Shown here piece by piece: positions 1-62,962 of a stretch of DNA of 62,962 nucleotides. The notes below the pieces were generated by a model. The model did no database searches, was not told the DNA's origin, and was given only the letters and a program-made list of their open reading frames with translations. Source of the DNA: a virus; the IMG/VR virus record IMGVR_UViG_3300034005_000004, positions 1 through 62,962 of that record, one strand, 5' to 3'. Position 1 is the stretch's first letter. The number at the start of each line of letters is the position of its first letter. A program made the translations under genes and the position numbers.

Positions 1-140
1 ATAGCTACGCGGGATCTCTGCGCGGCTGAGCTTGCCCGCGCGGGCCGGCGCAGTTGCTTTTGGCTGCGAGGTGATCGCTCGCAGACGGAAGCGTCTACCA
101 GGACCTCGTAGCTGTGAATGTCTGCGCGGCCAGGTTACTG
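1..140 (+). repeat. Intergenic repeat cassette, copy A (right part; continues from 62838-62962 across the window junction)
   Basis: 1-127 reads identical to 40889-41015 and is the reverse complement (~4 mismatches) of 15772-15900; contains palindrome GCCCGCGCGGGC and hairpins CTGCGAG-gtgatcg-CTCGCAG, AGACG-gaag-CGTCT. Confidence 0.9.
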
Positions 141-202: not shown

Positions 203-231
203 TTGACAAGTGTATTACATCATTGTATACT
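203..231 (+). promoter_or_regulatory. Near-consensus sigma70 early promoter with A/T-rich UP-like region upstream
   Basis: TTGACA (203-208), 17-nt spacer, TATACT (226-231); A8 run and AT-rich tract at 173-200; followed by AAGGAG RBS and the first gene. Confidence 0.7.
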
Positions 232-10881: not shown

Positions 10882-10917
10882 GCCCGCCGCACCTGCTCTC
10901 GCGGCGGGCCTTTTTTT
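10882..10917 (+). terminator. Intrinsic terminator
   Basis: gcccgccgc / gcggcgggc 9-bp stem followed by T7. Confidence 0.8.
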
Positions 10918-10949
10918 ATTGATAGCACTTTTCAACAGGAGGGAAGCAA

Positions 10950-11171
10950 ATGGCCGAAGCAAAGAAGAGAACGCTCACAGTACCGGAGCAAGAGTCGAGG
11001 GGCGATCAAATCGCTCTGCTTGCAAAGAAGTATAAGAGCCTCGCGGGGCTGCCTGACAGCCACGTTCACACGCGCTCAAAGGACGGCAAGACCGTGCTGC
11101 TACTCGACGGCACGAGGGTAACAGACGAGATCCTGAAGACAGCCGCGAAGCCTGAAAAGGAAGAGAAGTAA
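10950..11171 (+). CDS. Small hypothetical head-module protein
   Basis: GGAGGG RBS; 73 aa, Lys-rich. Confidence 0.65.
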   Translation: MAEAKKRTLTVPEQESRGDQIALLAKKYKSLAGLPDSHVHTRSKDGKTVLLLDGTRVTDEILKTAAKPEKEEK

Positions 11172-11224
11172 GCCCGAAGCAGTAAGCCCCGATCAATAAC
11201 ACTCACACGGCGAGCGCGTCTCGC

Positions 11225-15014: not shown

Positions 15015-15758
15015 ATGGCAATATCAACTAGAAAAAAGTCTGACTTCGTCGAATATGTTTCGCACCGACTCATCAGGGACGGCTCACCGGACTCGCCTGG
15101 CGTGCTACAGCCGCCGGATTATGACGACGCGGTCGATGCTGCCCTTGAGCAGTACTCTAAAGACAACCCGCTTGAATTCGTGAAAGATATTGATGGCGAA
15201 GCAGGCGGGCTTCGCGTCGTCGCCGTGAGCGACCTGCCCGGCTTCGATGAAGACTTCTCAGGTGACCCGCGCATCGAGATCATAGATAACGCGAGCGGCG
15301 ATGTCATTACCGAGATAGATGTCCGTTATTGGAGGTATCGCCGGACGCCCGCCGGGCAGACCGTCGAGTTGCTAGAAGACTCTGCGGGCAGCGGTCAATC
15401 GCTGCGCTACACCTACAAGATCAAGCGCGTTATTGACGAATCCGACCCCGATCTTACGACCGTCCCCGATTCGGACTTCTATGCCTTCTGCAATCTCGCA
15501 GCATCGAAGGCAGCGCGGTATCTCGCGAACCATTACAAGCACACCCGCGAAGGCAGTTATATGCAGGGTGACGTGGTCTACTTCCGCACTAAGGCGTCAG
15601 AGTTTGAGAAGGCAGAGAAAGATCACAAGAATGAGTACAACAATCACATGGGGATAGGTAAAGACGTTGAGGCGTCAGCCGCCGTCGTCATCGTCAATCA
15701 GGATTTGAGCGATTCCCGAGGTATGGATCGCTTCACTCACGGGCGGCGGTTTCGTTGA
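15015..15758 (+). CDS. Hypothetical head-completion / connector protein
   Basis: 247-aa ORF at the end of the head block; position only. Confidence 0.55.
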   Translation: MAISTRKKSDFVEYVSHRLIRDGSPDSPGVLQPPDYDDAVDAALEQYSKDNPLEFVKDIDGEAGGLRVVAVSDLPGFDEDFSGDPRIEIIDNASGDVITEIDVRYWRYRRTPAGQTVELLEDSAGSGQSLRYTYKIKRVIDESDPDLTTVPDSDFYAFCNLAASKAARYLANHYKHTREGSYMQGDVVYFRTKASEFEKAEKDHKNEYNNHMGIGKDVEASAAVVIVNQDLSDSRGMDRFTHGRRFR

Positions 15759-15761
15759 GCG

Positions 15762-15975
15762 TTACCTGGGTGCGCAGACATTCACAGCTACGAAGTACTG
15801 GTAGACGCTTCCGTCTGCGAGCGATCACCTCGCAGCCAAAAGCAACTGCGCAGGCCCGCGCGGGCAAGCTCAGCCGCGTAGAGATCCCGCGTAGCTATTA
15901 ACGTCTACCCTCGAGCGTAGCCGTTCTCGTCTGCCGGATCCGCAGACCAGAACGTCTACCTCGTCGATCAATAAG
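15762..15975 (-). repeat. Intergenic repeat cassette, copy B (inverted)
   Basis: Reverse complement aligns with copies A and C; also carries a 43-nt near-palindrome centred on GGATCC (15917-15959). Confidence 0.9.
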
Positions 15976-15976
15976 A

Positions 15977-16483
15977 ATGAGCACAATCGCGATAGATACA
16001 ATCGTGAACGCCTGCTCGGATGTTCTGAAAGCTATTCCGAGCATCGGCGTCAGCGAGTCGGGCGAAAAGCTTGTGTACCCGCGCGTGCGCTATGTCAACG
16101 ACGGCAGAGACATTGAATTCAAAGTGCTCGTCGGGGATTACAACTTCTCGCCGCCGCGCGCTCATTTCTGGATGCTGTTCAATACGACAAGCATCCCGAT
16201 ACTCGACGGTTTCAGCAACCTCGTAGGCGTCGAGCACACGATCAAATTCTTCGGCCATATGGCCGTCGTAGACAGCGCGGCCCCTGAGCTTGAGAGCGCG
16301 TCTCTCTTTCGGGCCGAGATTGACGCTATCCTCGCCGCCTTCGCAGATTCGATTGACCTCGGCCTGGGCTGCTCGATCACTCATCAACAATTCAGAGTGT
16401 TGAATGCAGGCGACGGCCAGGCGGCGGGCGCTCTCTGTCACATAGCCGAGTGCGCGCTGCCCGTGACCGCTTACAACGTGTAG
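15977..16483 (+). CDS. Hypothetical head-tail joining protein
   Basis: 168-aa ORF starting 1 nt after the end of repeat B. Confidence 0.6.
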   Translation: MSTIAIDTIVNACSDVLKAIPSIGVSESGEKLVYPRVRYVNDGRDIEFKVLVGDYNFSPPRAHFWMLFNTTSIPILDGFSNLVGVEHTIKFFGHMAVVDSAAPELESASLFRAEIDAILAAFADSIDLGLGCSITHQQFRVLNAGDGQAAGALCHIAECALPVTAYNV

Positions 16484-35995: not shown

Positions 35996-36607
35996 ATGTC
36001 ACAGCACGAGCAAAACAAATCCTTAACGGTTGATTGGTTGACGCCGCCCTATATCACAGAGGCGTTGCCAGTCTTTGACCTTGATCCGTGCGCGAGTACG
36101 CATCAAACATTAGCGACGGCGCGCAGGATGATCGTGTTACCGGAAGATGGTTTGCAGGTCAAGTGGGAAGGTAGCATTTGGCTCAATCCTCCTTATGGTC
36201 ACAAGCAGATCGCACCGTGGATGCGTAGGATGGCGCGGCACAACAACGGTGTCGCTCTTGTCTTTGCGAGGGTCGAAACCAAGTGGTTTCACCGTTTGGT
36301 TTGGCCTTTCGCTTCCGGTTTCTTCTTTTTTGAGGGCAGGCTGTCGTTTGTTCACGGGCAGGCATTAACGGACAGACAAAAATATGGAGGCAACGCGGCA
36401 TCGCCTTCCGTGCTGGTTGCCTACGGCAGACAATGTGAAGAATGGATTCGCAACCTAAAACTCTCTGGTCATTTCATTGCGAATCATCAATCAACTAACG
36501 ATCCCATCGCGGCCATCGAGGCCGCTCAGGGATACCAAATTCCTCCCTCAGCTAAAGTGGCCCACTTTGAAGATTCAAGCGCAGCATCGGGCCATCTGCC
36601 CGATTGA
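35996..36607 (+). CDS. Phage-type DNA N6-adenine methyltransferase (PF05869-like)
   Basis: 'DWLTPPYI', 'FDLDPCAS', 'WLNPPYG' motifs; lies in a lower-GC island. Confidence 0.7.
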   Translation: MSQHEQNKSLTVDWLTPPYITEALPVFDLDPCASTHQTLATARRMIVLPEDGLQVKWEGSIWLNPPYGHKQIAPWMRRMARHNNGVALVFARVETKWFHRLVWPFASGFFFFEGRLSFVHGQALTDRQKYGGNAASPSVLVAYGRQCEEWIRNLKLSGHFIANHQSTNDPIAAIEAAQGYQIPPSAKVAHFEDSSAASGHLPD

Positions 36608-36848: not shown

Positions 36849-37694
36849 ATGGCAGTAAAGCCGATTCTTGAGAGCCTGCGCTACCTGCGCGGGCGGCGAA
36901 TCTACATAAGCAAAAAGAGCATAGCCGCGTTCGTCGCGCTCGGGCTTGCGGGCGTGCTCACGCTCGCGCTCATCGTCTACAACCTGATTCGGTTTCGCCA
37001 TTACCAGGCGTGGGTGAGTCACACGCGGCAGGTCATAGGGGAGATTCGCGGGCTGCATGCTGCCGTCGTCGAGGCGGAAACGGGGCAGTCGCGGTTCGTC
37101 ATCACTCAAGATGGCGATTACCTGGACAACTACAAGGGGGCGCGGGCGAGCGCGTACGCGCAGGTAGAAAAGATGGAGACGCTTACTGCGGACAACCCGA
37201 ACCAGCGCGCGCTCATTCGCGAGGTGAGAGAGGCGATAGATGCCCGCCTCGCGACCCTTGCGACGGGGATAGAGCTGCGCGGGGCGCAGGGCCTTGACGT
37301 GACGCGCCAGGCGATGCTCACCGGGACCGGCAAGCGGCAGATGGACGGGATACGCGAGCTGATAACAAGGATGGAAAACGAGGAGATGCGCCTGCTCCGC
37401 GCGCGGGCGGGTAATGTGAGGGCGCAATGGGTTCAAACGCTCGCGATGCTGATTACGCCGCTGCCTCTCGCTTTGATCTTCCTCTTCCTGATAGGCGCGC
37501 TCGTCAATAAAGACATGGTCGATAAGGTGAAAGAGATGGAAGAGAGACAGGCCGCGAGTGAAGCGATCCTGCGTCACACGGAGGGCGTCAGGGCATTGAT
37601 GAAGAAAGAAGACCTGACATTTGATGCGATTCTTTCAGAGTCGGAGAGATTACTGAAAGAGCTTGAGATGCTCGCGCGCGCCCTCCCGAACTAA
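36849..37694 (+). CDS. Stand-alone CHASE3 sensor-domain membrane protein (no output domain)
   Basis: TM - 'WVSHTRQVIGEI...EAETGQSRFVITQDGDYLDNY...MDGIRELITRMENEEMRLL' (CHASE3 signature) - TM - ~70-aa coiled tail. Confidence 0.7.
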   Translation: MAVKPILESLRYLRGRRIYISKKSIAAFVALGLAGVLTLALIVYNLIRFRHYQAWVSHTRQVIGEIRGLHAAVVEAETGQSRFVITQDGDYLDNYKGARASAYAQVEKMETLTADNPNQRALIREVREAIDARLATLATGIELRGAQGLDVTRQAMLTGTGKRQMDGIRELITRMENEEMRLLRARAGNVRAQWVQTLAMLITPLPLALIFLFLIGALVNKDMVDKVKEMEERQAASEAILRHTEGVRALMKKEDLTFDAILSESERLLKELEMLARALPN

Positions 37695-38824: not shown

Positions 38825-39079
38825 ATGACACGCATAACAGAGAGCATAGCAAAAGCCGTAGATGCGCACGCGACGGAGCTGATCCTATTTATGTGGGCCG
38901 TAGTCGTGCTGATCGCATACTGCGTCAAGCCCCTGCCTGAACTCCTCGGGATTCTCAGCGGGGCCGCAGCCGCACTGTATGCAATCGCGCAGAAGCGCCC
39001 GAAGACAGAAGTCGCAGCGCAGATTGAGAATGCCGATCAAGTAAAGGTGAATTCGCGCGATCAAGTAACGATGAATTGA
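38825..39079 (+). CDS. Two-TM small membrane protein (holin-like)
   Basis: Hydrophobic segments 'LILFMWAVVVLIAYCV' and 'LLGILSGAAAALYAIA', charged C-terminus. Confidence 0.5.
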   Translation: MTRITESIAKAVDAHATELILFMWAVVVLIAYCVKPLPELLGILSGAAAALYAIAQKRPKTEVAAQIENADQVKVNSRDQVTMN

Positions 39080-39142
39080 CCATGCGGAGTCAGGTTTGAC
39101 TCCGCGAGCAGCTTCACCGCTCGCGCGGGGTCAGCGCGACAA

Positions 39143-39152
39143 GGGGGGGGGG
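39143..39152 (+). repeat. G10 homopolymer immediately upstream of the methyltransferase ATG
   Basis: Counted as ten consecutive G ending 1 nt before ATG 39153. Confidence 0.85.
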
Positions 39153-39968
39153 ATGAGTAGGCCTTTCACGTTAATGTTCGGAGATTGCCTAGACCGAATG
39201 AGCGAGATAGCACAAGGTAGCGTCAATATGGTTGCGGCTGACTTACCGTATAAGGCAACTATTCACGCATGGGATTCAATCATACCGTGCGAACCGCTCT
39301 GGAAGCAGTACAAGCGAGTTACGACGCGAAACGCAGCCATAGTGCTTACAGCCATCCAGCCATTCGCAAGTCTTCTAGTGATGAGCAATTTGAAAATGTT
39401 TCGCTATGAGCTAATAGCAGAAAAGACCATGCCTACGATGTTTCAGCAAGCGAAGAAAATGCCATTAAGAAAACATGAAAACGTGCTGGTGTTCTATAGG
39501 AAGTTGCCGACCTATAACCCGCAGTTTGAGGCCGGGAAACCTTACAAGCGCGCCGCTGGCAGCGGTGATCGAAAGGCCAGCGGATTTCATTCTCAAGCAA
39601 TTGTCAAAACGGCTATTGATAATAAAGGCACGCGCTACCCCGGCAGCGTGAAGAAATTCTCTAATTCAAATCACGGATTACTGCACCCGACCCAGAAATC
39701 AATCGAACTGATGGAGTATCTAATAAAGACATACTCAAACGAAGGCGACACGATTCTAGATAACGCGATGGGGTCAGGTACTACGGGCGAGGCATGTATT
39801 AATCTTAATCGGAAATTCATCGGCATAGAGAAAGACCCGCATTATTTCGAGGTCGCACAGGAACGAATCGAGAAGGCATGGGCCAGGAGAGAGATGGGCA
39901 TAACACCGCTCCCAAATATGCCGTTGTTCCCCGCGCCTAGCCAGGCGCGGTTCATCGAAGAAGGCTAG
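39153..39968 (+). CDS. DNA methyltransferase, N4/N6 (PF01555-like, beta class)
   Basis: 'VAADLPYK' (DPPY variant) N-terminal and 'TILDNAMGSGTTGEAC' AdoMet motif C-terminal. Confidence 0.75.
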   Translation: MSRPFTLMFGDCLDRMSEIAQGSVNMVAADLPYKATIHAWDSIIPCEPLWKQYKRVTTRNAAIVLTAIQPFASLLVMSNLKMFRYELIAEKTMPTMFQQAKKMPLRKHENVLVFYRKLPTYNPQFEAGKPYKRAAGSGDRKASGFHSQAIVKTAIDNKGTRYPGSVKKFSNSNHGLLHPTQKSIELMEYLIKTYSNEGDTILDNAMGSGTTGEACINLNRKFIGIEKDPHYFEVAQERIEKAWARREMGITPLPNMPLFPAPSQARFIEEG

Positions 39969-40012: not shown

Positions 40013-40765
40013 TCACCTTTTCATTTCTTGAATCGCAGCGAGAACGGCCTGACGCTCAAGCAGGGGCATGTTCTGAAGCTTCTTTTGCCATCGCTCTGTT
40101 TTCCTCTTGATCCTTTGCCGCTCGGTCTTGTCTCTTCCGAGGTACCTGTAGTCGTGAAGCTCGACGGGCTCGGGATAATTCATCCAGAGGTATTCGGTCG
40201 CCTGCGTGCCGTTGCGCGTGATCGCCTGATAGGTCAGGACGCGCCAGCCCTCAAGCACCTGTTCGTAGAGGCTTGAGCGATAGCCTGAGATCATTACCGG
40301 GCAGCGGAATCGCTTAAGCAGCTTCAGGAGTTGCAGATGTTGAAGGTCTGAGAATTCGCGCTCGTAGATGAGGGCCTTCTTGTGAGAGCGAGACTCAAGC
40401 AGGTACGGCGGGTCAAGGTAGATGAACTCGTCGCCCTTGAGCTTGAGATTTGAGAGTAAGGATATCGCGCAGCCGCAAATGACTGCCGTGCGCTGGCGGC
40501 TGCCGGGGTAGATACATTTGACTGCTTCGTCGATGCAGTTGTTTATGTCTACTGATCCAGGAAGGACCTCGCAGCCGATAGCGTCTGCGGTCGACCGGGC
40601 GACGGCAGGGTCGAGTTCTATGATGAGATTCACTTCTGCGGGCCGTGTGAAGCGCGAGATCGCGGCAGAGCCGCCGAAGGCTTCTATCTTCACACGATGC
40701 GGCGGTATCTGATTGATGATCGTCTGATAGACGCCCATTCCGTTCTTACTTCCAGGGTAATTCAT
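40013..40765 (-). CDS. dam: DNA adenine methyltransferase, D12/Dam class
   Basis: 'YPGSKNGM' N-terminal motif and 'IYLDPPYL' catalytic motif. Confidence 0.8.
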   Translation of the reverse strand: MNYPGSKNGMGVYQTIINQIPPHRVKIEAFGGSAAISRFTRPAEVNLIIELDPAVARSTADAIGCEVLPGSVDINNCIDEAVKCIYPGSRQRTAVICGCAISLLSNLKLKGDEFIYLDPPYLLESRSHKKALIYEREFSDLQHLQLLKLLKRFRCPVMISGYRSSLYEQVLEGWRVLTYQAITRNGTQATEYLWMNYPEPVELHDYRYLGRDKTERQRIKRKTERWQKKLQNMPLLERQAVLAAIQEMKR

Positions 40766-40772: not shown

Positions 40773-40801
40773 AGAGTAGACGAAACTATCTACGCGGTCA
40801 A
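40773..40801 (-). promoter_or_regulatory. Candidate promoter giving a leaderless dam mRNA
   Basis: Minus strand: TTGACC (rc 40796-40801), 17-nt spacer, TACTCT (rc 40773-40778), 7 nt, then ATG at 40765. Confidence 0.45.
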
Positions 40802-40809
40802 GAACTTTC

Positions 40810-41030
40810 TTATTGATCGACGAGGTAGACGTTCTCGTCTGCCGGTGATCACGCAGACATTCAGGGCTACGCTCGAGGGTAGACGTTAATAGCTACGCGG
40901 GATCTCTGCGCGGCTGAGCTTGCCCGCGCGGGCCGGCGCAGTTGCTTTTGGCTGCGAGGTGATCGCTCGCAGACGGAAGCGTCTACCAGGACCTCGTAGC
41001 TGTGAATGTCTGCGCTGGCCAGGTAAAGAC
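40810..41030 (+). repeat. Intergenic repeat cassette, copy C
   Basis: 40853-41015 reads identical to 62864-62899 plus 1-127 (163 nt). Confidence 0.9.
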
Positions 41031-41031
41031 A

Positions 41032-41838
41032 ATGCCAGACTTAGAGAAAAGAAAAATAGAGTTGATCTTCAGCCGCGAGGTATTCAAAACCGCCCTCTGG
41101 GCAACGCTCGCGGTCTGCGCCGTCGTCCTCACTTACGAGATCATAAAGACCTCGCGCGCGGTACGTCACCAGGCGGAAGCGGGCGCGGTCTATAACGAGC
41201 AGTTGCAGGCGATCATAGGTGAAGCCAGGGACGCCGTCCGCGACGTGCATGAGACGACGACGCAACTCAAGAAAGAGATACCCCGCGTCGTCTCAAACCT
41301 CGACGGGGCGGTGACGGATACGCGAACAGTGATACGCTCGCTCAACGGCCCTGTAATCGCGATCAACGGCGTCGTCGCAGACATCAGGCGCGATACCCTG
41401 CCGCTCGTCAACACGAACCTGTCGAGCCTGAACGACAACCAGATCAAGCTCGGAGAGACGATAGAGGTCACGAGAGACGGTCTGAAAGAGATCGTCTCGT
41501 CTCTTTCGCTCGCAGGACAAGACATCAGGCTTATAACCTCTGACCCCGCGCTTCAATCATTGCCGGAAGAGATCAACGCCCTCACGAAAAGCCTGAACCG
41601 GACGGCGGGCAAGGTCGAAGTCATCGCGGATGATCTGCACGCCACAGGGCAGAATGTCGCGGGCGTCACGGGCAACCTGAATCTAATGTCTGCCGACGCG
41701 CAGAAGTGGAGCCATGCCCTGCTATTCCCGCCGCGAGAGAAAGGCTTCGCAGGGTTCTTAAAGAGATACGTGCTTGCGCCTCTCAAGACATCGGGCGGCG
41801 TAGTCTACCTGTGGGTCAAGATCCTTAACGGCATGTAG
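41032..41838 (+). CDS. Membrane-anchored coiled-coil protein
   Basis: ATG 41032 directly after the repeat; TM 'ALWATLAVCAVVLTYEII'; long helical region. Confidence 0.6.
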   Translation: MPDLEKRKIELIFSREVFKTALWATLAVCAVVLTYEIIKTSRAVRHQAEAGAVYNEQLQAIIGEARDAVRDVHETTTQLKKEIPRVVSNLDGAVTDTRTVIRSLNGPVIAINGVVADIRRDTLPLVNTNLSSLNDNQIKLGETIEVTRDGLKEIVSSLSLAGQDIRLITSDPALQSLPEEINALTKSLNRTAGKVEVIADDLHATGQNVAGVTGNLNLMSADAQKWSHALLFPPREKGFAGFLKRYVLAPLKTSGGVVYLWVKILNGM

Positions 41839-48031: not shown

Positions 48032-48292
48032 ATGAGAATTAAACGAGTGTTCGCAACCCTGATACTCTGTCTGTATCTATCATTGACCGCCCTCGCGGGC
48101 CATACGACGCCGGGCGGCGCGTACTGCGATGGCGTGTGCGTGCAAAGCAAATGCTCCGTCTGCGGGGCAGCATGCACGGACGGAAACGCCCCTATCTCGC
48201 AAGATGAGAGCAAAGGCGCGTCAACTGATATGCCCGAGGACGTATTGGTGATTGCCTTTCTCTTGTTCATGGTCTATAGATTTCGCAGTTAA
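48032..48292 (+). CDS. Secreted Cys-rich peptide with a GHTTPGG N-terminus and a PEP-CTERM-like anchor
   Basis: Signal 'MRIKRVFATLILCLYLSLTALA|GHTTPGG'; 6 Cys; C-terminal 'PEDVLVIAFLLFMVYRFRS'; high GC3 in this frame. Confidence 0.5.
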   Translation: MRIKRVFATLILCLYLSLTALAGHTTPGGAYCDGVCVQSKCSVCGAACTDGNAPISQDESKGASTDMPEDVLVIAFLLFMVYRFRS

Positions 48293-48486
48293 CGGCTGAG
48301 CGGTCAACCAGCTTGAGCGGTAGGGGAGAGCTGGCTGGCCTGCTTTAGTCGGGTAACTCTCAACCAGCAGGGGCTAATCTTTTTAGTGCTGAGTCTTTTT
48401 GATTCTGTGCTCGTCGGATTATGCCCCTGCTTCCTTGTCACCGCGATACCTCTCTTTACATACGCTACTTCAGTCGCGAATCACTG

Positions 48487-48663
48487 CTATTGAGAACCGT
48501 TAATTCTCCGCAGGATTCGTTTCAGCTTGCAGCGCTGACACCAGAGCGATTCAATCCGCTCGCCTTTGAAATAATAAACGTGTATTGGTCGTCTACCGCA
48601 TGACCAGCAAAGACCTTTCGCGGCGGTACTGTCATAGTGCTGATCGAACGCTTGCTGACTCAA
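48487..48663 (-). CDS. Small zinc-ribbon protein (58 aa, TTG start)
   Basis: 'CWSCG...x19...CQRC'; GAGG upstream; below the track size cut-off. Confidence 0.3.
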   Translation of the reverse strand: MSQQAFDQHYDSTAAKGLCWSCGRRPIHVYYFKGERIESLWCQRCKLKRILRRINGSQ

Positions 48664-48864
48664 TTGATCGCCTCATCTCTACTAAGCTATCGCCACATTA
48701 ACATACTAATGCGGTAGTAGTCTGATCAAGAAAATTCCCTTCCATTCGCCTCTCTAAAATCATCGTCATTTGCTCAGTTTTTCTGCCGGAGATTATCGGT
48801 CTGAGTAGCCGCGCATACATCGTGAAATATAACTCCGGGCGCGGCGTTGCTACTATCGCGCGCC

Positions 48865-49116
48865 ATGATCCGTTATCTCATACGAAAGGTCGCTCAGAAG
48901 AAAGGCATCGCTAATCCTTATCAGCTCGCGCAGGCAACGGAGCTGCCGTATGAGTCTTGCCGTCGCCTCTGGGCCGATGATACATCGTCCATGTCGAAAG
49001 AGACGCTCGCCCGCCTCTGCGCAACGCTCAACGTGCAGCCTGCCGACTTGATTGACTGGATACCTGAGAATCGCGACCTCCCTCCTACGAAACGGCATCA
49101 GAGACGACGGTTATAA
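48865..49116 (+). CDS. XRE/Cro-type HTH regulator (paralogue of 53219-53530)
   Basis: 'NPYQLAQATELPYESCRRLW...ETLARLCATLNVQPADLI' aligns with the 53219 protein. Confidence 0.7.
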   Translation: MIRYLIRKVAQKKGIANPYQLAQATELPYESCRRLWADDTSSMSKETLARLCATLNVQPADLIDWIPENRDLPPTKRHQRRRL

Positions 49117-49128
49117 TGGACATGGCTC

Positions 49129-49398
49129 TTATGAGCGCGCATCTAGCCGACGGAGATGCTTTTCTACAGTTGACGCATCGTGCTTCAATGCGTCCAGCAA
49201 CGCAGAGACGCCGCAGATCGCCGCCTTCTCCTCGTCTTGTATATCACCGTTTTTAACCAGGGTGTTGTCCAGCGCGCGCAGGCTGAACATTACCCCGATC
49301 TTATCCGAAGCAATATCTCTCACGTCGCAGAGCACCAATTTGTAGACGCTGATTTCGGCGATGGTGCGCTCGGATTTTATATCAACTCGTGATTGCAT
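49129..49398 (-). CDS. Hypothetical protein
   Basis: 89-aa ORF at the end of the leftward operon. Confidence 0.5.
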   Translation of the reverse strand: MQSRVDIKSERTIAEISVYKLVLCDVRDIASDKIGVMFSLRALDNTLVKNGDIQDEEKAAICGVSALLDALKHDASTVEKHLRRLDARS

Positions 49399-49414
49399 CT
49401 TTTTCCCTTCACGC

Positions 49415-51128: not shown

Positions 51129-51555
51129 ACGACGACGACGTTACCTCGCACGCTCTGGCGTTCAGGTGATCTATCAGGTAGCGCGCGGCCCGGCGGTTCA
51201 ACTCCTCAGGCCTCAGCTTGAAGAGTTCCGCGCACTCGCGCTCCGCATAGATCCCCGCGCTGTTTGCGATGGCGTTAATGCAGACAAGCTGCTTCGGGGT
51301 TACGAGACTGCTCATTCTGCGCGCAACGGGATCGCCTTCAAACGCTCGCACGGGAGCGACGGGAGCGAAGCGCGGAGGCTCAAGCCCGGACAGGTTAGAA
51401 AGCAGACCGCGCAGCTCGAAGAGAGCCAGGTCTATAGCAGGGGCATCGCGCTCTATCAGAGCGTCAATCCTGCCCTGTATCAATAGCCGTATATGCTCGA
51501 CAGGCGACAAGCCCTGTCGTGTCGCGGTCCCTTCCGGCTGTGAATGATCTTTCAT
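51109..51555 (-). CDS. Hypothetical protein
   Basis: GGGAGGA RBS plus ATGAAAG start; 148 aa. Confidence 0.65.
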   Translation of the reverse strand: MKDHSQPEGTATRQGLSPVEHIRLLIQGRIDALIERDAPAIDLALFELRGLLSNLSGLEPPRFAPVAPVRAFEGDPVARRMSSLVTPKQLVCINAIANSAGIYAERECAELFKLRPEELNRRAARYLIDHLNARACEVTSSSYERKSA

Positions 51556-51588
51556 CGCAAATCCTCCCTATGCTATAGTCTCGCCACT
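51556..51588. promoter_or_regulatory. Divergent control cassette; extended -10 TGCTATAGT for GHT ORF 3
   Basis: TATAGT at 51574-51579 preceded by TGC; ATG at 51589, 9 nt downstream. Confidence 0.5.
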
Positions 51589-51795
51589 ATGGGACATGTA
51601 TACGGTTCAGGCAGAATGGGTCACGTTCTAGGCAGCGGCAGAGCAGACCATTCGACCACAGGCGGTTGCTCTGGTCACAACACAACTAGCGGTCATACTA
51701 TGTCTGGGAGCCACGCGCTTAGTGGTGGCCGCATAGTCCCGGGCGGTCGCACGGTAGCCGGCGGCTGCTCCGTTCATGGATTGATGGGCGGCTGA
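51589..51795 (+). CDS. G-H-T hexapeptide-repeat small protein, paralogue 3
   Basis: MGHVYGSGRMGHVLGSGRADHSTTGGCSGHNTTSGHTMSGSHALSGGRIVPGGRTVAGGCSVHGLMGG. Confidence 0.55.
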   Translation: MGHVYGSGRMGHVLGSGRADHSTTGGCSGHNTTSGHTMSGSHALSGGRIVPGGRTVAGGCSVHGLMGG

Positions 51796-53122: not shown

Positions 53123-53211
53123 AATTCTACAACAAGTTAGTAGCGTGGTCAAGAAAATTCTACAACAAGTTAGTAAAAACTGCTTGCAATTATCAAAAAT
53201 GTGTAGATAAT
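53123..53211. promoter_or_regulatory. Divergent promoter/operator switch region
   Basis: 20-nt direct repeats AATTCTACAACAAGTTAGTA at 53123-53142 and 53156-53175, third half-site AAGTTAGTA at 53241-53249; leftward TTGACC-17-TAGAAT, rightward TTGCAA(53184)-16-GATAAT(53206). Confidence 0.65.
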
Positions 53212-53218
53212 AGCGGCT

Positions 53219-53530
53219 ATGGTGAATAGCTCGTCACAAAAAGTTAGTAAGCCGCGAGCGCGAAACTTGCAACAAGGAAGAAGAAAAGCTAAGCTTCGGC
53301 GCGTGATAACTTTCATAGTTAAAGAGATTGCGATTCGGGCAGGCTTTAAGAACCCGAATGAGCTTGCGGAAGCAACAGGCTTGCACTATGAGAGCGTTCG
53401 CCGTCTCTGGACCGGGACTTCGCGGCGGCTCGATTTAGATACCCTTGAGAAGCTTTGCCTGACGCTTCAGGTTCCTCCCGGCCAGCTATTCTCTTTTGAT
53501 TTCGAGTTCAAGAAGACGGATAAGCAATGA
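53219..53530 (+). CDS. XRE/Cro-type HTH regulator
   Basis: 'NPNELAEATGLHYESVRRLW...LEKLCLTLQVPPGQLF'; ATG lies 7 nt after the -10, so it is probably leaderless. Confidence 0.7.
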   Translation: MVNSSSQKVSKPRARNLQQGRRKAKLRRVITFIVKEIAIRAGFKNPNELAEATGLHYESVRRLWTGTSRRLDLDTLEKLCLTLQVPPGQLFSFDFEFKKTDKQ

Positions 53531-54556: not shown

Positions 54557-55501
54557 ATGAGCATTCAAGTTATGAATCTCGTGTGGCAGAACGCGCCATA
54601 CCAGGAAGGCACGCTGCTCGTTTTGCTAGCTCTTGCCGATTGGTCAGACGACGACGGTAAATCATTCCCTTCAATCCCAAAGCTTTCTATCAAAGCGCGG
54701 CAGAGCGAGCGGAACATCCGCTACGCGCTGAAGCGCCTCGAAAAAGACGGCGTCGTCGCGATTAAGAGGGCTGTAGGCAGGGGCAATCAGAGTACCTATC
54801 AGATCAACCTGGCGAAGCTCAGGCAGATGCCCGCCGTCGGAATAAAAGGTGAAAATATTGCAGGTTTTAGAGGAGGGAGAAAACCTGCAAAGTCGAACAG
54901 GGAAAACCTGCAAAGTCGAACGGAAAACCTGCAAAGTCGAACAAGCCCATCATTTGTTATGAACCATCATGATAACCATCATGGTAATACGTCATCATCA
55001 GGCGACGACGCGAAGGTATCTCAGATGCTCTCTCATGACGGAGGCCAGGCGGATGCGAAGCAAGAGAGGGCTTGCCGCTCGCTCTTAAAGAGATTTCCCG
55101 CCGAGCCTGTAGAGCGATTCCTTGCCTGTTACGACGATGCTGTCTCGCAGATTCTTCCGCCCGGCCAGAAGCGCACCCGGGAGAGATGGCGCGAGGTCTT
55201 CCTCGGCTGGCGCACGGTAGAGACCTACTTCCCGCAATGGCTCAAGCTCAACCCTGCGTCGTCGTCGAACGGTCGGGATGATTGGCGTTCGGCTACCCGC
55301 AAGATAATAAGCGGCCTGAACTGCGATGTCATGACGGATACAGAGCTGAAGCACGTCGTCGGGCTGCTCGACGAAATTGACGAAGGCCGGGGAGACTTCG
55401 CGGTATTTAAAGCGCTCCTAGAAAGCCCTGAGTTGCCCGCCGGGTTGAGGGAGAAGTGTCTGGCGGTCGCGGATGGGCGCGTTGGAGGAGCGAAGCGATG
55501 A
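54557..55501 (+). CDS. Replication initiator-like winged-HTH protein
   Basis: N-terminal 'LLVLLALADWSDDDGKSFPSIPKLSIKARQSERNIRYALKRLEKDGVV'; iterons embedded in the gene. Confidence 0.6.
   Translation: MSIQVMNLVWQNAPYQEGTLLVLLALADWSDDDGKSFPSIPKLSIKARQSERNIRYALKRLEKDGVVAIKRAVGRGNQSTYQINLAKLRQMPAVGIKGENIAGFRGGRKPAKSNRENLQSRTENLQSRTSPSFVMNHHDNHHGNTSSSGDDAKVSQMLSHDGGQADAKQERACRSLLKRFPAEPVERFLACYDDAVSQILPPGQKRTRERWREVFLGWRTVETYFPQWLKLNPASSSNGRDDWRSATRKIISGLNCDVMTDTELKHVVGLLDEIDEGRGDFAVFKALLESPELPAGLREKCLAVADGRVGGAKR
54857..54942 (+). repeat. Iteron array (candidate replication origin) inside the initiator gene
   Basis: GAAAACCTGCAAAGTCGAAC at 54879, 54902 and 54923 (23- and 21-bp spacing), plus inverted TTGCAGGTTTT upstream. 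Confidence 0.6.
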
Positions 55502-55666: not shown

Positions 55667-56527
55667 ATGAAGCACATTGTTGGGTTCTCAGGCGGAATAG
55701 ACTCTCAGGCTTGCGCCCGTTGGGTGCTGAATCGCTTCGGCCCTGAAGATACGATCATCGTTAATTCAGACGCTGGCGGCAACGAAGACCCGATCACTAC
55801 AGCTCATGTCGAATGGTATTCCGAGAATGTTCATCCTGTTGTGATGCTCTCGCCAATCGTCGCAGACATGGGCGGTCGAGCGAAGGGCAAGATCGCCGAG
55901 CTAGGGCTATCCCCGAACGATCCGCTCACCTTTGACCTGCTCGCAATTCTTAAACAGCGCTTTCCGAGCCGGAAAGCGCAATTCTGCACCGAACACCTGA
56001 AGCTTATACCGATGCTCCGCTGGCAGCAGCTAGTCTTCAGCGTGGGCGGTCAGTACGAAAGGGAGGATTACGAGCGGTACGCAGGGGTTCGCCGCGATGA
56101 AAGCGAGAAGCGTAGACACGCTTTAGAGCGAGAGTGGGACGCCCTATTTGACTGCTGGCTGAATCGCCCACTCGTAGAGTGGGATAAGCAGCGATGCTTC
56201 GATTACGTGCATTCTCACGGGGAAGAATCGAATCCTCTTTACAGATTGGGCTTTAATCGGGTTGGCTGCGCGCCGTGTATCAATTCGGGCAAAGATGACA
56301 TCCTGGCGTGGGTCCAAAGGCGGCCCGCGATGATCGAAAAGATTCGCGTTTGGGAAAACCGCGTTGGTCGCCCATATTTCCCGCCGATGGTTCCAGGCAT
56401 GTATATCAACTGGATTGATGACGTTATTCAGTGGGCGCAGACCTCGCACGGCGGCAGGCAGGCGAACTTTCTGCGCGTCTTGAATGATCGACCTAACTGC
56501 GAGAGCAAGTATGGATTATGCGAGTGA
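55667..56527 (+). CDS. PP-loop ATP pyrophosphatase, PAPS-reductase-like
   Basis: 'FSGGIDSQA' PP-loop, 'GVRRDESEKR', 'RVGCAPC' motifs. Confidence 0.75.
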   Translation: MKHIVGFSGGIDSQACARWVLNRFGPEDTIIVNSDAGGNEDPITTAHVEWYSENVHPVVMLSPIVADMGGRAKGKIAELGLSPNDPLTFDLLAILKQRFPSRKAQFCTEHLKLIPMLRWQQLVFSVGGQYEREDYERYAGVRRDESEKRRHALEREWDALFDCWLNRPLVEWDKQRCFDYVHSHGEESNPLYRLGFNRVGCAPCINSGKDDILAWVQRRPAMIEKIRVWENRVGRPYFPPMVPGMYINWIDDVIQWAQTSHGGRQANFLRVLNDRPNCESKYGLCE

Positions 56528-56881: not shown

Positions 56882-57754
56882 GTGATCTCCAGCAAGCTGA
56901 TAACACTTGAAAGACGACTGCCTGAGCGTGATGCAATCAGGGTCTTTCCTGCGCGTAACAAGTGGACACCTGACGACGAGCTTGCATTCGTCGGCGATCC
57001 TCCTCTTGAAGCATTTCGGCCTGGCACGCCTGATACTCCCGTGCTTGTCAGCGTTACCTTCACCTGGCATCGTCGCGAAGGCGAAAGGCTTCAGGCTGCG
57101 TGGGGTCAATATTACAGGGACGTGCGAATTGGCGGGCCTGCTTATGGTAACCCCGGCGGTGAGTTCACGCCGGGGCTGTTTATAAAGCGCGGCTGCACGA
57201 TCACAAGTAGAGGATGCTCAAAGAAGTGTGGTTGGTGTGATGTGCCGACCCGTGAAGGCGCGATCCGCGAGCTTGATATTAAGCCGGGCTGGATTGTGCA
57301 GGATAACAACCTGCTTGCCTGCTCAGAAGATCACATCCGCCGCGTTTTCGAGATGCTCAAGGAACAGAAGCGACGAATCTATTTCAATGGCGGCCTTGAT
57401 AAGCATTACTTGAAAGACTGGCATCGGCTCCTGTTTGACTCAATCCATATAGGCGAGCTGTGGTTTGCCTGTGATACCGCCGCAGACATTCCGCACTTAG
57501 AGAGAGCCGCGAAAATCTTAGACGGCATCCCGCTCAGAAAGCGGCGCTGTTACACGATGATAGGTTATGACGGCGAGAGCCTGGCAGATGCAGAGCGCAG
57601 AATTGAGCGCGTCTTTCGATTAGGTTTCATGCCTTTCTGTCAACTCTACCAGCCGGAGGAAACGAAGGTGTACCCGCTTGAGTGGCGACAGCTTCATCGG
57701 AAATGGTCACGCCCGGCGGCCTATATGCCTGGCGTGAGCGAGGGCGAAGGCTGA
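56882..57754 (+). CDS. Radical SAM enzyme
   Basis: 'CSKKCGWC' CX3CX2C cluster motif near aa 110; GTG start overlapping the upstream stop. Confidence 0.7.
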   Translation: MISSKLITLERRLPERDAIRVFPARNKWTPDDELAFVGDPPLEAFRPGTPDTPVLVSVTFTWHRREGERLQAAWGQYYRDVRIGGPAYGNPGGEFTPGLFIKRGCTITSRGCSKKCGWCDVPTREGAIRELDIKPGWIVQDNNLLACSEDHIRRVFEMLKEQKRRIYFNGGLDKHYLKDWHRLLFDSIHIGELWFACDTAADIPHLERAAKILDGIPLRKRRCYTMIGYDGESLADAERRIERVFRLGFMPFCQLYQPEETKVYPLEWRQLHRKWSRPAAYMPGVSEGEG

Positions 57755-59888: not shown

Positions 59889-61016
59889 ATGGCTGAGAAA
59901 ACAAGTATCGAATGGACTGACGCGACATGGAACCCGATTCGGGGTTGCTCACGGGTTTCTGAAGGCTGTCGTAACTGCTACGCGGAAGGGATTGCCGCGA
60001 GGTTCTCTGGAGCAAGGCGAGCCTACGAGGGACTCGCGCAGATGACGACGAGCGGGCCGCGATGGACTGGCGAAGTGCGTTTGATTGAGGACCATCTTCA
60101 AGACCCGCTAAGGTGGAAGAGCCCCCGCAGAATATTCGTCAACTCGATGAGCGATCTATTTCATGAATCAATTCCTGACGAGTGGGTAGATAGAATCTTT
60201 GCCGTCATGGCGCTTGCACCGCAGCACACCTTTCAGGTTCTGACGAAGCGAGCGGAGAGGCTTCCCGGTTACTTTAGCCAGATACATCACTGTGGCCCGT
60301 ATACCGACGTTATTACGCGGATTGCGGCTCACACGGAGACTATCGCGCCTATTAGACTCAGAAAGCTATGGCCTCTGCCTAACGTGCAGCTCGGCGTCTC
60401 GGTCGAGGATCAGAAGACGGCAGATGAGCGCATACCACATCTACTCAATACACCCGCTGCTGTTCGCTTTATTTCAGCGGAGCCGCTGCTCGGGCCGATT
60501 GACGTTGAACGGTATCTTGACCCTACAGGGTTCCAATGCATTGACCCTGACTGCGTTCACCGTTATCTCAAGTTTGTCGATGAAGACGATTATGAAACGA
60601 CATCGGATAACGACCCGATATGCCGTGACTGCGGCCAGGTAGGAACATGGACGGGTTATGAGCGTGGGGTTGATTGGGTGATCGTCGGCGGCGAATCAGG
60701 ACACAGCGCGCGGCCCATGCATCCACAATGGGCCAGGGGCTTGCGCGATCAATGCGATGCAGCCGGGGTGAGCTTCTTTTTTAAACAATGGGGTGAGTAT
60801 CGGCCTTTCACCCAAGCCGAAGTGGATGATCTATCAACGCCGGGGAGGCTTGTTGATGCTTACTGCGAGTGTGGGTATTACTGCGATGAAGCAGTCGGAC
60901 ACGTAGATCACGGAGCATTCCCGATGCGTCGCGTAGGCAAAAAGAAGGCGGGCCGCTTGCTCGATGGCCGAACCTGGGATGAGTTCCCTAACACAACGGA
61001 GCAGCATGACAGCTAA
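59889..61016 (+). CDS. Phage Gp37/Gp68 family (DUF5131) three-Cys protein
   Basis: 'SIEWTDATWNPIRGCSRVSEGCRNCYAE' N-terminal signature; 'GGESG' and 'FFFKQWGE' C-terminal motifs. Confidence 0.75.
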   Translation: MAEKTSIEWTDATWNPIRGCSRVSEGCRNCYAEGIAARFSGARRAYEGLAQMTTSGPRWTGEVRLIEDHLQDPLRWKSPRRIFVNSMSDLFHESIPDEWVDRIFAVMALAPQHTFQVLTKRAERLPGYFSQIHHCGPYTDVITRIAAHTETIAPIRLRKLWPLPNVQLGVSVEDQKTADERIPHLLNTPAAVRFISAEPLLGPIDVERYLDPTGFQCIDPDCVHRYLKFVDEDDYETTSDNDPICRDCGQVGTWTGYERGVDWVIVGGESGHSARPMHPQWARGLRDQCDAAGVSFFFKQWGEYRPFTQAEVDDLSTPGRLVDAYCECGYYCDEAVGHVDHGAFPMRRVGKKKAGRLLDGRTWDEFPNTTEQHDS

Positions 61017-62837: not shown

Positions 62838-62962
62838 GTAGCCGTTCTCGTCTGCGGGATCCGGCAGACATTCAGGGCTACGCTCGAGGGTAGACGTTAA
62901 TAGCTACGCGGGATCTCTGCGCGGCTGAGCTTGCCCGCGCGGGCCGGCGCAGTTGCTTTTGG
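62838..62962 (+). repeat. Intergenic repeat cassette, copy A (left part); 62900-62962 duplicates 1-63
   Basis: 62864-62899 equals 40853-40888; the terminal 63 nt are identical to the window start. Confidence 0.9.

What the first reader, a model, noticed from the sequence alone, without database searches (positions are those of the whole stretch)
40810..41030. Palindrome-dense non-coding cassette of ~210 bp present three times at module boundaries (two direct, one inverted)
The copies lie at 62838-62962 plus 1-~140 (A), 40810-41030 (C, same orientation) and 15762-15975 (B, inverted). By my alignment A and C are identical over 163 nt (62864-62899 plus 1-127 versus 40853-41015). B differs at about 4 positions in the 127-nt core. 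The cassette carries at least 7 G(T/C)AGAC / GTCT(A/G)C half-sites in both orientations. It also has a perfect 12-bp palindrome GCCCGCGCGGGC and hairpins CTGCGAG-gtgatcg-CTCGCAG and AGACG-gaag-CGTCT. Placement is non-random: A precedes the early promoter, B separates the head and tail blocks, and C separates the methylase/lysis block from the second arm. B and C share an extra 16-mer cttattgatcgacgag on the side facing an outward-reading gene (15977, dam). No recombinase gene is present. Options include multi-site regulator binding or bidirectional control regions, a multi-copy small RNA, or mobile regulatory cassettes analogous to the PeSL elements of T4-type phages. They could also be recombination substrates. 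Recombination between A and C would split the genome into about 40.9 and 22 kb, and B x C would invert about 25 kb.
Basis: seen in the sequence. Interest (0 to 1): 0.7.

Follow-up and report, generated by a model that had tools for sequence, protein, structure and literature searches.

The report
Mobile palindromic cassette in a phage
A roughly 220-bp non-coding cassette built from 18-bp palindromes sits three times in an uncultured soil-phage genome and looks like a small insertion element that has spread within the genome, a known but rare kind of thing in phages whose mobilising or binding protein is still unknown.

Summary
Three copies exist: A at 62838-62899 plus 1-138, B at 15761-15977 (inverted), and C at 40807-41027. 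A and C are identical over 163 nt, and B differs at 9 of those 163 positions. Independent assemblies from other samples reproduce B whole and four of the five junctions checked at A and C.

Each copy carries five 18-bp palindromes of the form GYAGAC-N6-GTCTRC, spaced 25-28 bp apart in a 3+2 layout. They flank a GC-rich hairpin region that ends in a T-run.

The main new result is that copy B is a 217-bp insertion. In a relative, the two flanking genes abut with an ATGA stop/start overlap. In the window the cassette sits there, flanked by a duplicated TGAGC. Copy C borders a two-methylase block that a second relative lacks.

The cassette contains no sigma-70 promoter and matches no Rfam family. 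B's substitutions break predicted pairs without compensation, yet none falls in a half-site. About 60 proteins were scanned and none is a recombinase, transposase or partition protein. No homologue of the cassette was found in any collection searched.

Best reading: a MITE-like, non-autonomous insertion element whose palindromes are protein-binding sites. The main rival, which may also be a complement, is a regulator-site array, because extra sites sit at a putative promoter of the adjacent methylase gene. Interest is moderate.

The parts
62838..62899 (+). Copy A, left part. It holds op1 (62838-62855, GTAGCC variant), op5 (62864-81) and the start of op3. It lacks the 18-nt left terminus seen in B and C. 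Bases 62900-62962 repeat window 1-63.
   Evidence: The left junction is reproduced at 100% in MEGAHIT contigs from ERZ27253070 and ERZ27253098.
1..138 (+). Copy A, right part. It holds the rest of op3, the central hairpins, op2 (81-98), op4 (108-125) and the right terminus CCAGGTTAC (130-138).
   Evidence: The right junction is reproduced at 100% in L006, L007 and L063.
15761..15977 (-). Copy B, full length (217 bp) and inverted. It is an insertion relative to L058. The 18-bp sites lie at 15774, 15801, 15891, 15917 and 15942. Its last base supplies the A of the ATG of gene 15977-16483.
   Evidence: An independent 31.8-kb contig reads through it at 100% identity (L004).
15756..15760 (+). Left copy of the duplicated target TGAGC. 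It contains the TGA stop of gene 15015-15758.
   Evidence: alignment A3 against the empty site in L058
15978..15982 (+). Right copy of the duplicated target TGAGC. It contains the TG of the ATG of gene 15977-16483.
40807..41027 (+). Copy C, full length. The left terminus is TTCTTATTGATCGACGAG (40807-40824) and the right terminus is CCAGGTAA(A). An AGG in the right terminus lies 8 nt upstream of the ATG of gene 41032-41838.
   Evidence: The left junction is reproduced at 100% in L001 and L003.
40825..40842 (.). op1, GTAGAC GTTCTC GTCTGC
   Evidence: (0 mismatches)
40853..40870 (.). op5, GCAGAC ATTCAG GGCTAC. It is the left arm of the 19-bp inverted repeat that bounds the 163-nt core.
40879..40896 (.). 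op3, GTAGAC GTTAAT AGCTAC
40897..40968 (+). GC-rich centre. It holds a long imperfect hairpin around the 12-bp palindrome GCCCGCGCGGGC (40922-40933), then TTGCTTTTGG, then the hairpin CTGCGAG-GTGATCG-CTCGCAG (40952-40972). It looks like a weak intrinsic terminator in this orientation only.
   Evidence: (flagged in copy B)
40969..40986 (.). op2, GCAGAC GGAAGC GTCTAC. Both half-sites match the consensus, and the site is identical in all three copies.
40996..41013 (.). op4, GTAGCT GTGAAT GTCTGC. It is the right arm of the inverted repeat that bounds the core.
40776..40793 (.). Extra 18-bp site GTAGACGAAACTATCTAC, outside the cassette. It overlaps a possible leftward promoter of the adjacent methylase gene (TTGACC-17-TACTCT, ATG 7 nt downstream). 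Its surroundings resemble the op3 region at 24 of 33 positions.
   Evidence: The promoter is my reading; the scan tool did not flag it.
40469..40588 (.). Four weaker 18-bp sites (40469, 40508, 40535, 40571; 1-2 mismatches each) inside the 5' coding part of the adjacent methylase gene. Unexplained.
   Evidence: My estimate of the chance expectation is about 0.035 sites per 325 bp.
40013..40765 (-). D12-class (Dam-type) N6-adenine DNA methyltransferase gene, divergent from copy C. Together with the N6_N4 methylase gene at 39096-39968 it is absent from relative L060.
203..231 (+). Near-consensus sigma-70 promoter TTGACA-17-TATACT, about 65 bp downstream of copy A. It is not part of the repeat.

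Best explanation
The cassette is a 217-222-bp non-coding, non-autonomous insertion element of the MITE type that has multiplied inside this phage genome.

Shown:
- There are three near-identical copies.
- Copy B is an exact 217-bp insertion into the overlapping stop/start junction of two head-module genes. It duplicates 5 bp of target (TGAGC), so the left copy keeps the TGA stop and the right copy keeps the (A)TG start.
- Copy C lies at the edge of a 1.9-kb two-methylase block that a second relative lacks.

Inferred:
- Insertion proceeds through a 5-bp staggered cut of the target.
- It is catalysed in trans by an unidentified protein, from the host or the phage.
- That protein recognises the 18-bp dyad sites GYAGAC-N6-GTCTRC. 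One site lies 18 nt from the left end, one lies 13-15 nt from the right end, and three are internal.
- Copies survive only where they do not break an operon. The only terminator-like feature (GC hairpin plus TTGCTTTT) points with transcription at the end of the right-arm operon (A). It sits between divergent genes in C and is antisense inside the late operon in B.
- Gene conversion among the copies keeps them alike. A and C are identical in the core, whereas the left block is a mosaic among A, B and C.
- The dyad sites may also have been taken over for regulation of the neighbouring methylase gene.
For: - Empty site. In L058 the homologues of genes 15015-15758 (78% amino-acid identity, same C-terminus) and 15977-16483 (63%) abut with an ATGA overlap. 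The window has 217 extra bp there, flanked by TGAGC on both sides.
- Second relative. L060 has the neighbours of C in the same order but has no cassette, no methylase genes and no 18-bp sites with up to 1 mismatch in 13.7 kb.
- Age of the copies. They are 94-100% identical to each other, whereas flanking proteins are only 63-78% identical to those of relatives.
- Shared termini. B and C have both termini in common although their flanks are unrelated.
- No conserved coding frame. ORFs that cross the copies run on into unrelated flanks.
- Core structure. The 163-nt core is bounded by a 19-bp inverted repeat, and the cassette folds as a long hairpin on either strand, with z = -5.75 and -4.88.
- Half-sites are spared. 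None of the 9 differences between B and A/C falls in the 48 nt of half-sites. My estimate of the chance of that is about 0.04.
- Orientation fits operon tolerance.
- Precedent. MITEs are known in phage genomes but are rare, reported in about 0.2% of viruses (PMC11602168).
Against: - The outer termini (TTCTTATTGATC... and the reverse complement GTTACCTGG...) are not convincing inverted repeats and do not end in the usual TG/CA.
- Only B shows a target duplication. A lacks the left 18 nt, and C has no flanking duplication.
- The TGAGC pattern would also arise if the relative had lost the cassette by deletion between 5-bp repeats. I judge that less likely, because such repeats would have had to pre-exist exactly at a stop and a start codon.
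- No transposase was found in the phage. No other copies were found in any host-like genome, metagenome, plasmid or phage collection searched.
- Three copies and a single empty site are a small sample.
- 18-bp sites outside the element, at the putative promoter of the methylase gene and inside that gene, point to a role beyond transposition.
Confidence: 0.5

Rival explanations
1. The cassette is a fixed array of binding sites for a dimeric DNA-binding protein (a regulator, or an architectural or silencing protein). The array was duplicated to three control points of the genome and is kept by selection. The protein binds the five 18-bp dyads per copy and controls adjacent transcription: the methylase gene, gene 41032, the boundary before the early promoter, and the head/tail junction. 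Mobility would be incidental or absent. This can coexist with the best explanation if a mobile element has been taken over for regulation.
For: - Site geometry (6-N6-6 dyads, 25-28 bp apart, in groups of 3 and 2) resembles lambdoid operator arrays (the comparison rests on my own knowledge).
- Half-sites are spared by all core differences between the copies, while spacers and linkers vary.
- One extra site overlaps a possible promoter of the methylase gene, and four weaker sites lie inside that gene, all outside the repeat.
- Each copy has 3-4 GATC sites next to a Dam-type methylase gene.
- Dispersed dyad sites of unknown, non-promoter function are known in Cluster O mycobacteriophages (PMC4351075).
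Against: - No sigma-70-type promoter lies inside or overlaps any cassette site. The strong early promoter lies 65 bp beyond copy A.
- The phage's Cro/CI-type gene has its own, different repeats in the switch region, and the O-like replication initiator has its own iterons.
- Relatives manage without the cassette at the B and C positions.
- Selection on short binding sites does not explain 100% identity of the spacers, the linkers and the 72-bp centre between A and C.
- No candidate binding protein was identified.
Confidence: 0.25
2. Each copy encodes or forms a structured RNA. This could be a small RNA, or a cis-acting element in the mRNA such as a processing, stability or anti-termination element, that works through the long hairpin.
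For: The predicted fold is very stable, at -108.9 kcal/mol for 199 nt with z = -5.75. A hairpin followed by TTGCTTTT could mark a 3' end. ERIC- and Correia-type elements act in this way when transcribed (my own knowledge).
Against: - No promoter lies upstream within the repeat.
- No Rfam family matches, even at E up to 10 apart from two chance microRNA-family hits.
- The opposite strand folds almost as well (z = -4.88), as expected for DNA-level palindromes.
- The central 81 nt alone fold no better than shuffles (z = -0.03).
- In B, 5 of the 6 substitutions at paired positions break the pair and none is compensated.
- B is transcribed, if at all, in the opposite sense to A.
Confidence: 0.06
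3. The copies are sites for programmed site-specific recombination. A x C would split the genome into 40.9-kb and 22-kb circles, and B x C would invert 25 kb. The 18-bp dyads would serve as core or accessory sites, as in res, hix or dif systems.
For: Dyads with 6-bp spacers that are identical between the copies fit the layout of recombinase core sites. Multi-site arrays resemble res sites. Both comparisons are inference from my own knowledge.
Against: - No integrase, resolvase, invertase or transposase domain was found in about 60 proteins.
- Either rearrangement would separate or invert essential modules.
- Gene order across C matches relative L060, which has no cassette.
- Every assembly seen agrees with one arrangement, although short-read contigs cannot span A or C.
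Confidence: 0.05
4. Copy A is the physical end of the phage DNA (a direct terminal repeat, or a pac or cos region). The internal copies would be relics.
For: The contig ends lie inside copy A and overlap by 63 bp. Multi-site protein-binding arrays with GATC sites occur in some packaging sites such as P1 pac (my own knowledge).
Against: - The contig ends, and all MEGAHIT contig ends, fall where a repeat longer than k forces a break: 141 nt into the 163-nt identical core.
- Two internal copies that are near-identical to a packaging site would cut the genome.
- The cassette lies 4.4 kb from the terminase genes.
Confidence: 0.03

Closest known systems
Bacterial MITEs and palindromic intergenic elements (Correia, ERIC, RUP type), including the rare 'vMITEs' reported in phage genomes (PMC11602168)
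   Same: It is small, non-coding and intergenic, with several near-identical copies. The whole element is an imperfect long palindrome. One copy is flanked by a short target duplication, and a relative has the empty site. No transposase lies inside it.
   Different: The outer termini are not clear inverted repeats. The body is built from five 18-bp dyad sites rather than one pair of terminal repeats. Only three copies exist, all in one phage lineage, and no copies were found in any bacterial genome searched. No cognate transposase is known.
Mycobacteriophage mobile elements MPME1/2 (ultra-small mobile elements of Cluster G and F phages; recalled from Sampson et al. 2009 and mentioned in PMC5356059, not read here)
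   Same: It is a short element that is phage-borne, present or absent between close relatives, and inserted between genes.
   Different: By my recollection, MPMEs are about 440 bp, carry a small ORF, have 11-bp inverted repeats and occur once per genome. The cassette here has no ORF and three copies.
PeSLs of T4-type phages (PMC2839356, PMC4122927)
   Same: It is a repeated intergenic cassette with a stem-loop, found at the borders of variable gene blocks. Copy C borders a block that is absent from a relative.
   Different: PeSLs are short composite units of an early promoter plus a terminator, and they act as homology patches for recombination. This cassette has no promoter, is three to four times longer, and copy B carries a target duplication typical of transposition.
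Operator arrays of lambdoid phages, and dispersed dyad sites such as the Cluster A stoperators and the Cluster O 17-bp repeats (PMC4351075)
   Same: It has 17-18-bp two-fold symmetric sites in arrays with about 25-bp spacing, or dispersed around the genome, and these are predicted to bind a dimeric protein.
   Different: Here the whole 160-220 bp, including spacers and a 72-bp centre, is repeated nearly exactly. The sites do not overlap recognisable promoters. No repressor gene is adjacent, and the Cro/CI-type gene has different repeats.
IS200/IS605-derived palindrome-associated elements and REP/REPIN elements
   Same: It has subterminal hairpins at similar distances from each end, GTAG-containing palindromes, and a REPIN-like long hairpin.
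   Different: Those elements make no target duplication and insert next to a fixed tetra- or pentanucleotide. Here B has a 5-bp duplication and the flanks of the three copies share no motif. No Y1 transposase gene was found, and the element is not high-copy in any genome searched.

Membership tests
MITE (non-autonomous class II element) | Short, non-coding, no transposase inside | tested here: met
   The element is 217-222 bp. ORFs that cross the copies continue into unrelated flanks and are not conserved.
MITE (non-autonomous class II element) | Several near-identical copies | tested here: met
   There are three copies. A and C are identical over 163 nt, and B matches at 154 of 163.
MITE (non-autonomous class II element) | Terminal inverted repeats of at least 10 bp at the element ends | tested here: inconclusive
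   The outer termini TTCTTATTGATCGACGAG and (reverse complement) GTTACCTGG... align poorly on reading. A good 19-bp inverted repeat bounds the inner 163-nt core in A and C, and dyad sites lie 18 nt and 13-15 nt from the two ends.
MITE (non-autonomous class II element) | Target-site duplication of 2-10 bp | tested here: inconclusive
   B is flanked by TGAGC (15756-60 and 15978-82), which is single in the empty site of L058. C has no flanking duplication, and A is truncated on the left.
MITE (non-autonomous class II element) | Empty site in a related genome | tested here: met
   L058 has the two flanking genes abutting with an ATGA overlap. L060 lacks C together with the methylase block.
MITE (non-autonomous class II element) | Cognate autonomous element or transposase with matching ends | tested here: not met
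   No transposase domain was found in about 60 window proteins. The ends do not recur elsewhere in the window. No copies were found in the GTDB or JGI pattern scans, which used an op2-op4 pattern. The true host genome is unknown.
PeSL (promoter-early stem-loop cassette) | Sigma-70 early promoter inside the cassette | tested here: not met
   The scans found no promoter-like site inside any copy.
PeSL (promoter-early stem-loop cassette) | Stem-loop or terminator joined to the promoter | tested here: inconclusive
   A GC-rich hairpin plus TTGCTTTT is present. The scan flagged it only in copy B.
Phage operator array (repressor or Cro type) | Arrays of two-fold symmetric 17-18-bp sites | tested here: met
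   There are five sites per copy, spaced 25-28 bp apart. The window has 32 sites against 6.8 expected.
Phage operator array (repressor or Cro type) | Sites overlap the regulated promoters | tested here: not met
   There are no promoters in the cassettes. Only the extra site at 40776 overlaps a weak candidate promoter for the methylase gene.
Phage operator array (repressor or Cro type) | Cognate repressor gene adjacent, or binding shown | not testable with these tools
   The Cro/CI-type gene at 53219-53530 sits beside different 20-nt repeats. No binding data exist.
IS200/IS605-type palindrome-associated element or REP/REPIN | No target duplication, and insertion 3' of a fixed short target | tested here: not met
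   B has a 5-bp duplication. The left flanks of B and C differ (GCTCA and GAACT).
Rfam-type structured RNA | Match to a family, or covariation supporting a fold | tested here: not met
   There is no match at gathering score, and only chance microRNA-family hits at E up to 10. B breaks 5 of 6 pairs with no compensation.
Replication origin (iterons for the O-like initiator) | Iterons for the phage's own initiator | tested here: not met
   The O-like gene at 54557-55501 carries its own three 21-nt iterons plus an inverted copy at 54858-54943. These are unrelated to the cassette sites.
Site-specific recombination site (res, hix, dif, att) | Cognate recombinase encoded or known | tested here: not met
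   No tyrosine or serine recombinase domain was found in the proteins scanned. Host enzymes cannot be excluded.

The most novel reading that the evidence does not exclude
The cassette is a phage-resident, self-spreading array of binding sites. A protein encoded by the phage, among its many unannotated genes, would both recognise the 18-bp dyads and move the cassette. New copies would then place genes (the methylase gene, gene 41032, the head/tail junction) under that protein's control, or insulate operons from each other. This would be a mobile operator or insulator, mobilised by a previously undescribed kind of enzyme.
Probability: 0.12. Interest if true: 0.75.

Novelty: new variant of a known kind. 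Interest (0 to 1): 0.4.

Why it matters
Transposable elements are strongly selected against in phage genomes, and documented cases are few. This case has a clean empty site, a target duplication that preserves both an overlapping stop codon and a start codon, and three copies whose orientation fits operon tolerance. It is therefore a tidy natural example of how a selfish or regulatory cassette can spread within a virus of an uncultured soil lineage; the contig was binned with Blastocatellia. The five-dyad architecture predicts a specific DNA-binding or mobilising protein that could be fished out experimentally. On the practical side, the 163-nt identical repeats break short-read assemblies of this phage and could lead to mis-joins or false claims of circularity.

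Tried and rejected
- Homologues of the cassette. I found none by blastn in INPHARED phages or PLSDB plasmids, and none by an exact 23-mer in IMG/VR. A two-dyad pattern run over JGI metagenomes and GTDB genomes gave only chance-level, unrelated hits.
- Terminase relatives. The best are at most 48% identical in IMG/VR and 54% in the protein collection. None of the IMG/VR loci fetched carries the dyad sites or a comparable dispersed cassette.
- Population variation. All independent assemblies are 100% identical in the cassettes, so no covariation test was possible.
- Replication origin: rejected, because the O-like gene has its own iterons.
- Cro/CI operators: rejected, because the switch region has different repeats.
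- Genome-wide excess of GYAGAC (137 against 59 expected): this is mostly GCAGAC on the coding strand, so it is a composition effect and not dispersed sites.
- Search for a binding or mobilising protein. Pfam and PHROG scans of about 60 proteins found HTH proteins but no recombinase, transposase or ParAB. PDB sequence searches of four unknown proteins returned nothing.
- Diversity-generating retroelement, CRISPR-like repeats, attP and LexA box: considered and dropped. There is no reverse transcriptase, no integrase, the spacing is wrong, and the differences between copies are not adenine-specific.
- Tandem repeats next to homologues of the methylase in IMG/VR loci: these are perfect arrays at contig ends, probably assembly artefacts, and are unrelated.
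- The supplement of the vMITE paper is not held as text, so I could not search it for this sequence.

Full report
**What is there**

The window is a 62,899-bp phage-like genome whose first 63 bases repeat its last 63. It carries a large terminase subunit, a portal protein, a capsid protein, a 1,698-aa and a 1,248-aa tail-type protein, three DNA methylases, an O-like replication initiator and a Cro/CI-type HTH protein. NCBI holds the same contig under 'Blastocatellia bacterium'. It has no nucleotide match in INPHARED, no tRNA and no Rfam match.

The reported cassette is real and occurs three times:
- A at 62838-62899 plus 1-138,
- B at 15761-15977, inverted,
- C at 40807-41027.

A and C are identical over exactly 163 nt. 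B differs from them at 9 of those 163 positions, 4 of them within the 127-nt core.

**Not an artefact**

Independent assemblies from other samples confirm the copies. A 31.8-kb contig reads straight through B at 100% identity. Three of the four junctions at A and C (the gene-62784 flank into A, A into the gene-271 flank, and the methylase flank into C) are reproduced at 100%. Those contigs stop 141 nt into the 163-nt identical core, which is what a k=141 assembler must do. The ends of the window also fall inside copy A for this kind of reason. The 63-bp overlap therefore says little about physical DNA ends.

The junction from C into gene 41032 was not read directly in another assembly. The order of the two arms across C is supported by relative L060. 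There the homologue of gene 38825-39079 lies one small gene away from the homologue of gene 41032-41838.

**Anatomy**

Each copy holds five 18-bp sites of the form GYAGAC-N6-GTCTRC. In C they start at 40825, 40853, 40879, 40969 and 40996, giving start-to-start spacings of 28, 26, 90 and 27 bp. With up to two mismatches the window has 32 such sites against 6.8 expected. Fifteen lie in the cassettes and five more lie immediately left of C.

Between the third and fourth site lies a 72-bp GC-rich stretch with three hairpins and the run TTGCTTTTGG. The second and fifth sites are reverse complements of each other, so the 163-nt core is bounded by a 19-bp inverted repeat. The cassette folds into one long hairpin on either strand, with z = -5.75 and -4.88. 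The centre alone is unremarkable, with z = -0.03.

B and C share an 18-nt left terminus that A lacks. All three share the right terminus CCAGGTWA. Each copy has 3-4 GATC sites, against about one expected.

**The key result: an empty site**

A 923-bp metagenome contig, L058, encodes homologues of the two genes that flank B. They are 78% identical over the last 60 residues (ending at the same residue) and 63% identical over 168 residues. In L058 the two genes abut with an overlapping ATGA stop/start.

Aligned to the window, homology runs up to ...TTTCGT TGAGC on the left and resumes at (A)TGAGC ACAATCG on the right. The 217 bp between are the cassette, and TGAGC is present once in L058 but twice in the window. 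The left copy supplies the TGA stop. The right copy, with the element's last A, supplies the ATG.

This is the signature of an insertion with a 5-bp target duplication. The reverse reading, a deletion in L058 between pre-existing 5-bp repeats, would need those repeats to have sat exactly on a stop and a start codon. It also fits poorly with copies that are 94-100% alike while the flanking proteins are 63-78% identical to those of relatives.

A second relative, L060 (part of a 65-kb contig), has C's neighbours but neither the cassette nor the two methylase genes. It has no 18-bp site with up to one mismatch in 13.7 kb.

**What it is not**

- It is not a promoter cassette. No sigma-70-like site lies inside any copy, although good ones exist elsewhere, at 203-231 and at 53124-53152 and 53184-53211.
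- It is not the replication origin. The O-like gene has its own three 21-nt iterons plus an inverted copy.
- It is not the Cro/CI operator set. The switch region has different 20-nt repeats.
- A structured RNA is unlikely. There is no promoter and no Rfam match, both strands fold alike, and in B five of the six substitutions at paired positions break the pair with no compensation.
- No integrase, resolvase, transposase or ParA/ParB domain appeared in about 60 proteins.

**What favours protein binding**

None of the nine core differences between B and A/C touches the 48 nt of half-sites. By my calculation the chance of that is about 0.04. Instead the differences fall in an N6 spacer, in the centre, and in the linker between the fourth and fifth sites.

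One further site at 40776-40793 lies outside the repeat. It overlaps what I read as a weak leftward promoter for the adjacent Dam-type methylase gene (TTGACC-17-TACTCT, with the ATG 7 nt downstream). Its surroundings resemble the third-site region at 24 of 33 positions. Four weaker sites lie inside the 5' part of that methylase gene. I cannot explain these last four.

**Most likely mechanism**

I read the cassette as a MITE-like, non-autonomous insertion element.

The steps shown are multiplication to three copies, one clean insertion with a target duplication, and one copy at the border of a lineage-specific block.

The steps inferred are:
- a staggered 5-bp target cut by a protein supplied in trans;
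- recognition of the dyad sites by that protein;
- survival only where operons are not broken: the hairpin plus T-run points with transcription only at the end of the right-arm operon (A), lies between divergent genes in C, and is antisense in the late operon (B);
- gene conversion among the copies, since the left block is a mosaic of A, B and C features while the A and C cores are identical.

The main weaknesses are poor outer terminal inverted repeats, a target duplication at only one copy, and no known transposase. A fixed regulator-site array is the main rival, and it may be a second role of the same element.

**Comparison with known systems**

The closest kinds are bacterial MITEs and palindromic intergenic elements, and their rare phage counterparts, reported in about 0.2% of viruses (PMC11602168). 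Next come the mycobacteriophage MPMEs. PeSLs of T4-type phages (PMC4122927) share the idea of a repeated cassette at the borders of variable blocks, but they are defined by an early promoter, which is absent here. Operator arrays and the unexplained 17-bp dyad repeats of Cluster O mycobacteriophages (PMC4351075) share the site geometry but not the exact repetition of 160-220 bp.

I rate this as a new variant of a known kind, of moderate interest.

Noticed in passing
L069:1535-1633; L074:6553-6696; L071:1325-1486 and 1-403; also L073, L075, L076, L048, L049, L053, L057: My two-dyad pattern hit tandem arrays of an 18-nt hairpin, GCAGACG-(A/G)GGA-CGTCTGC, with a 25-29-bp period. They sit in intergenic DNA of MAGs from very different phyla (Acidobacteriota, Prevotellaceae, Cloacimonadota, Pontiellaceae and others). 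They share nothing with the window beyond the half-sites that the pattern required. The GGA-type loops and the breadth of taxa are curious.
   Followed up: partly
window 40469-40588: Four 18-bp dyad-like sites (1-2 mismatches each, spaced 39, 27 and 36 bp) lie inside the 5' coding part of the Dam-type methylase gene. This is far more than chance for a 120-bp stretch, and I have no explanation for it.
   Followed up: partly
window 2145-2198 and 51549-51602; also 1956-1999 and 51742-51785: A second dispersed repeat: a 54-nt inverted pair (89% complementary) that ends in GGGAGG...ATG, plus a weaker neighbouring pair. It looks like a shared promoter or 5' leader with a paralogous small gene, present in both the left early region and the leftward right-arm operon.
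   Followed up: no
window 54858-54943: Three tandem 21-nt repeats, GAAAACCTGCAAAGTCGAAC(A/G), plus an inverted partial copy, lie inside the O-like replication initiator gene (54557-55501). This is probably the origin of replication, laid out as in lambda.
   Followed up: partly
window 53123-53250: Two exact 20-nt direct repeats, AATTCTACAACAAGTTAGTA, and a third partial copy lie between divergent promoter-like sites next to the Cro/CI-type HTH gene (53219-53530). This is probably the genetic switch, with its own operators.
   Followed up: partly
window 35996-36607, 39096-39968, 40013-40765: The genome encodes three DNA methyltransferases: a PF05869 Dam-type, an N6_N4 type and a D12-class Dam-type. 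The last two form a block that relative L060 lacks. L060 instead has a C5 methylase gene elsewhere.
   Followed up: partly
window 1-63 and 62900-62962: The 63-bp end overlap lies wholly inside copy A. The 163-nt identical repeat makes every MEGAHIT contig stop exactly 141 nt into it. Circularity of this contig is therefore inferred from repeat overlap, not from unique sequence.
   Followed up: yes
window 36849-37694; 55667-56527; 56882-57754; 59889-61016: Some of the gene content is unusual for a phage: a CHASE3-domain protein, a PAPS-reductase-like protein next to a radical-SAM-like protein, and a DUF5131 protein.
   Followed up: no
window 10000-11225 and 48271-49414: Two stretches of about 1.1-1.2 kb have lower GC content (0.49-0.51) and no long ORF. 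The first contains two strong terminator-like hairpins, at 10699-10720 and 10816-10839.
   Followed up: no
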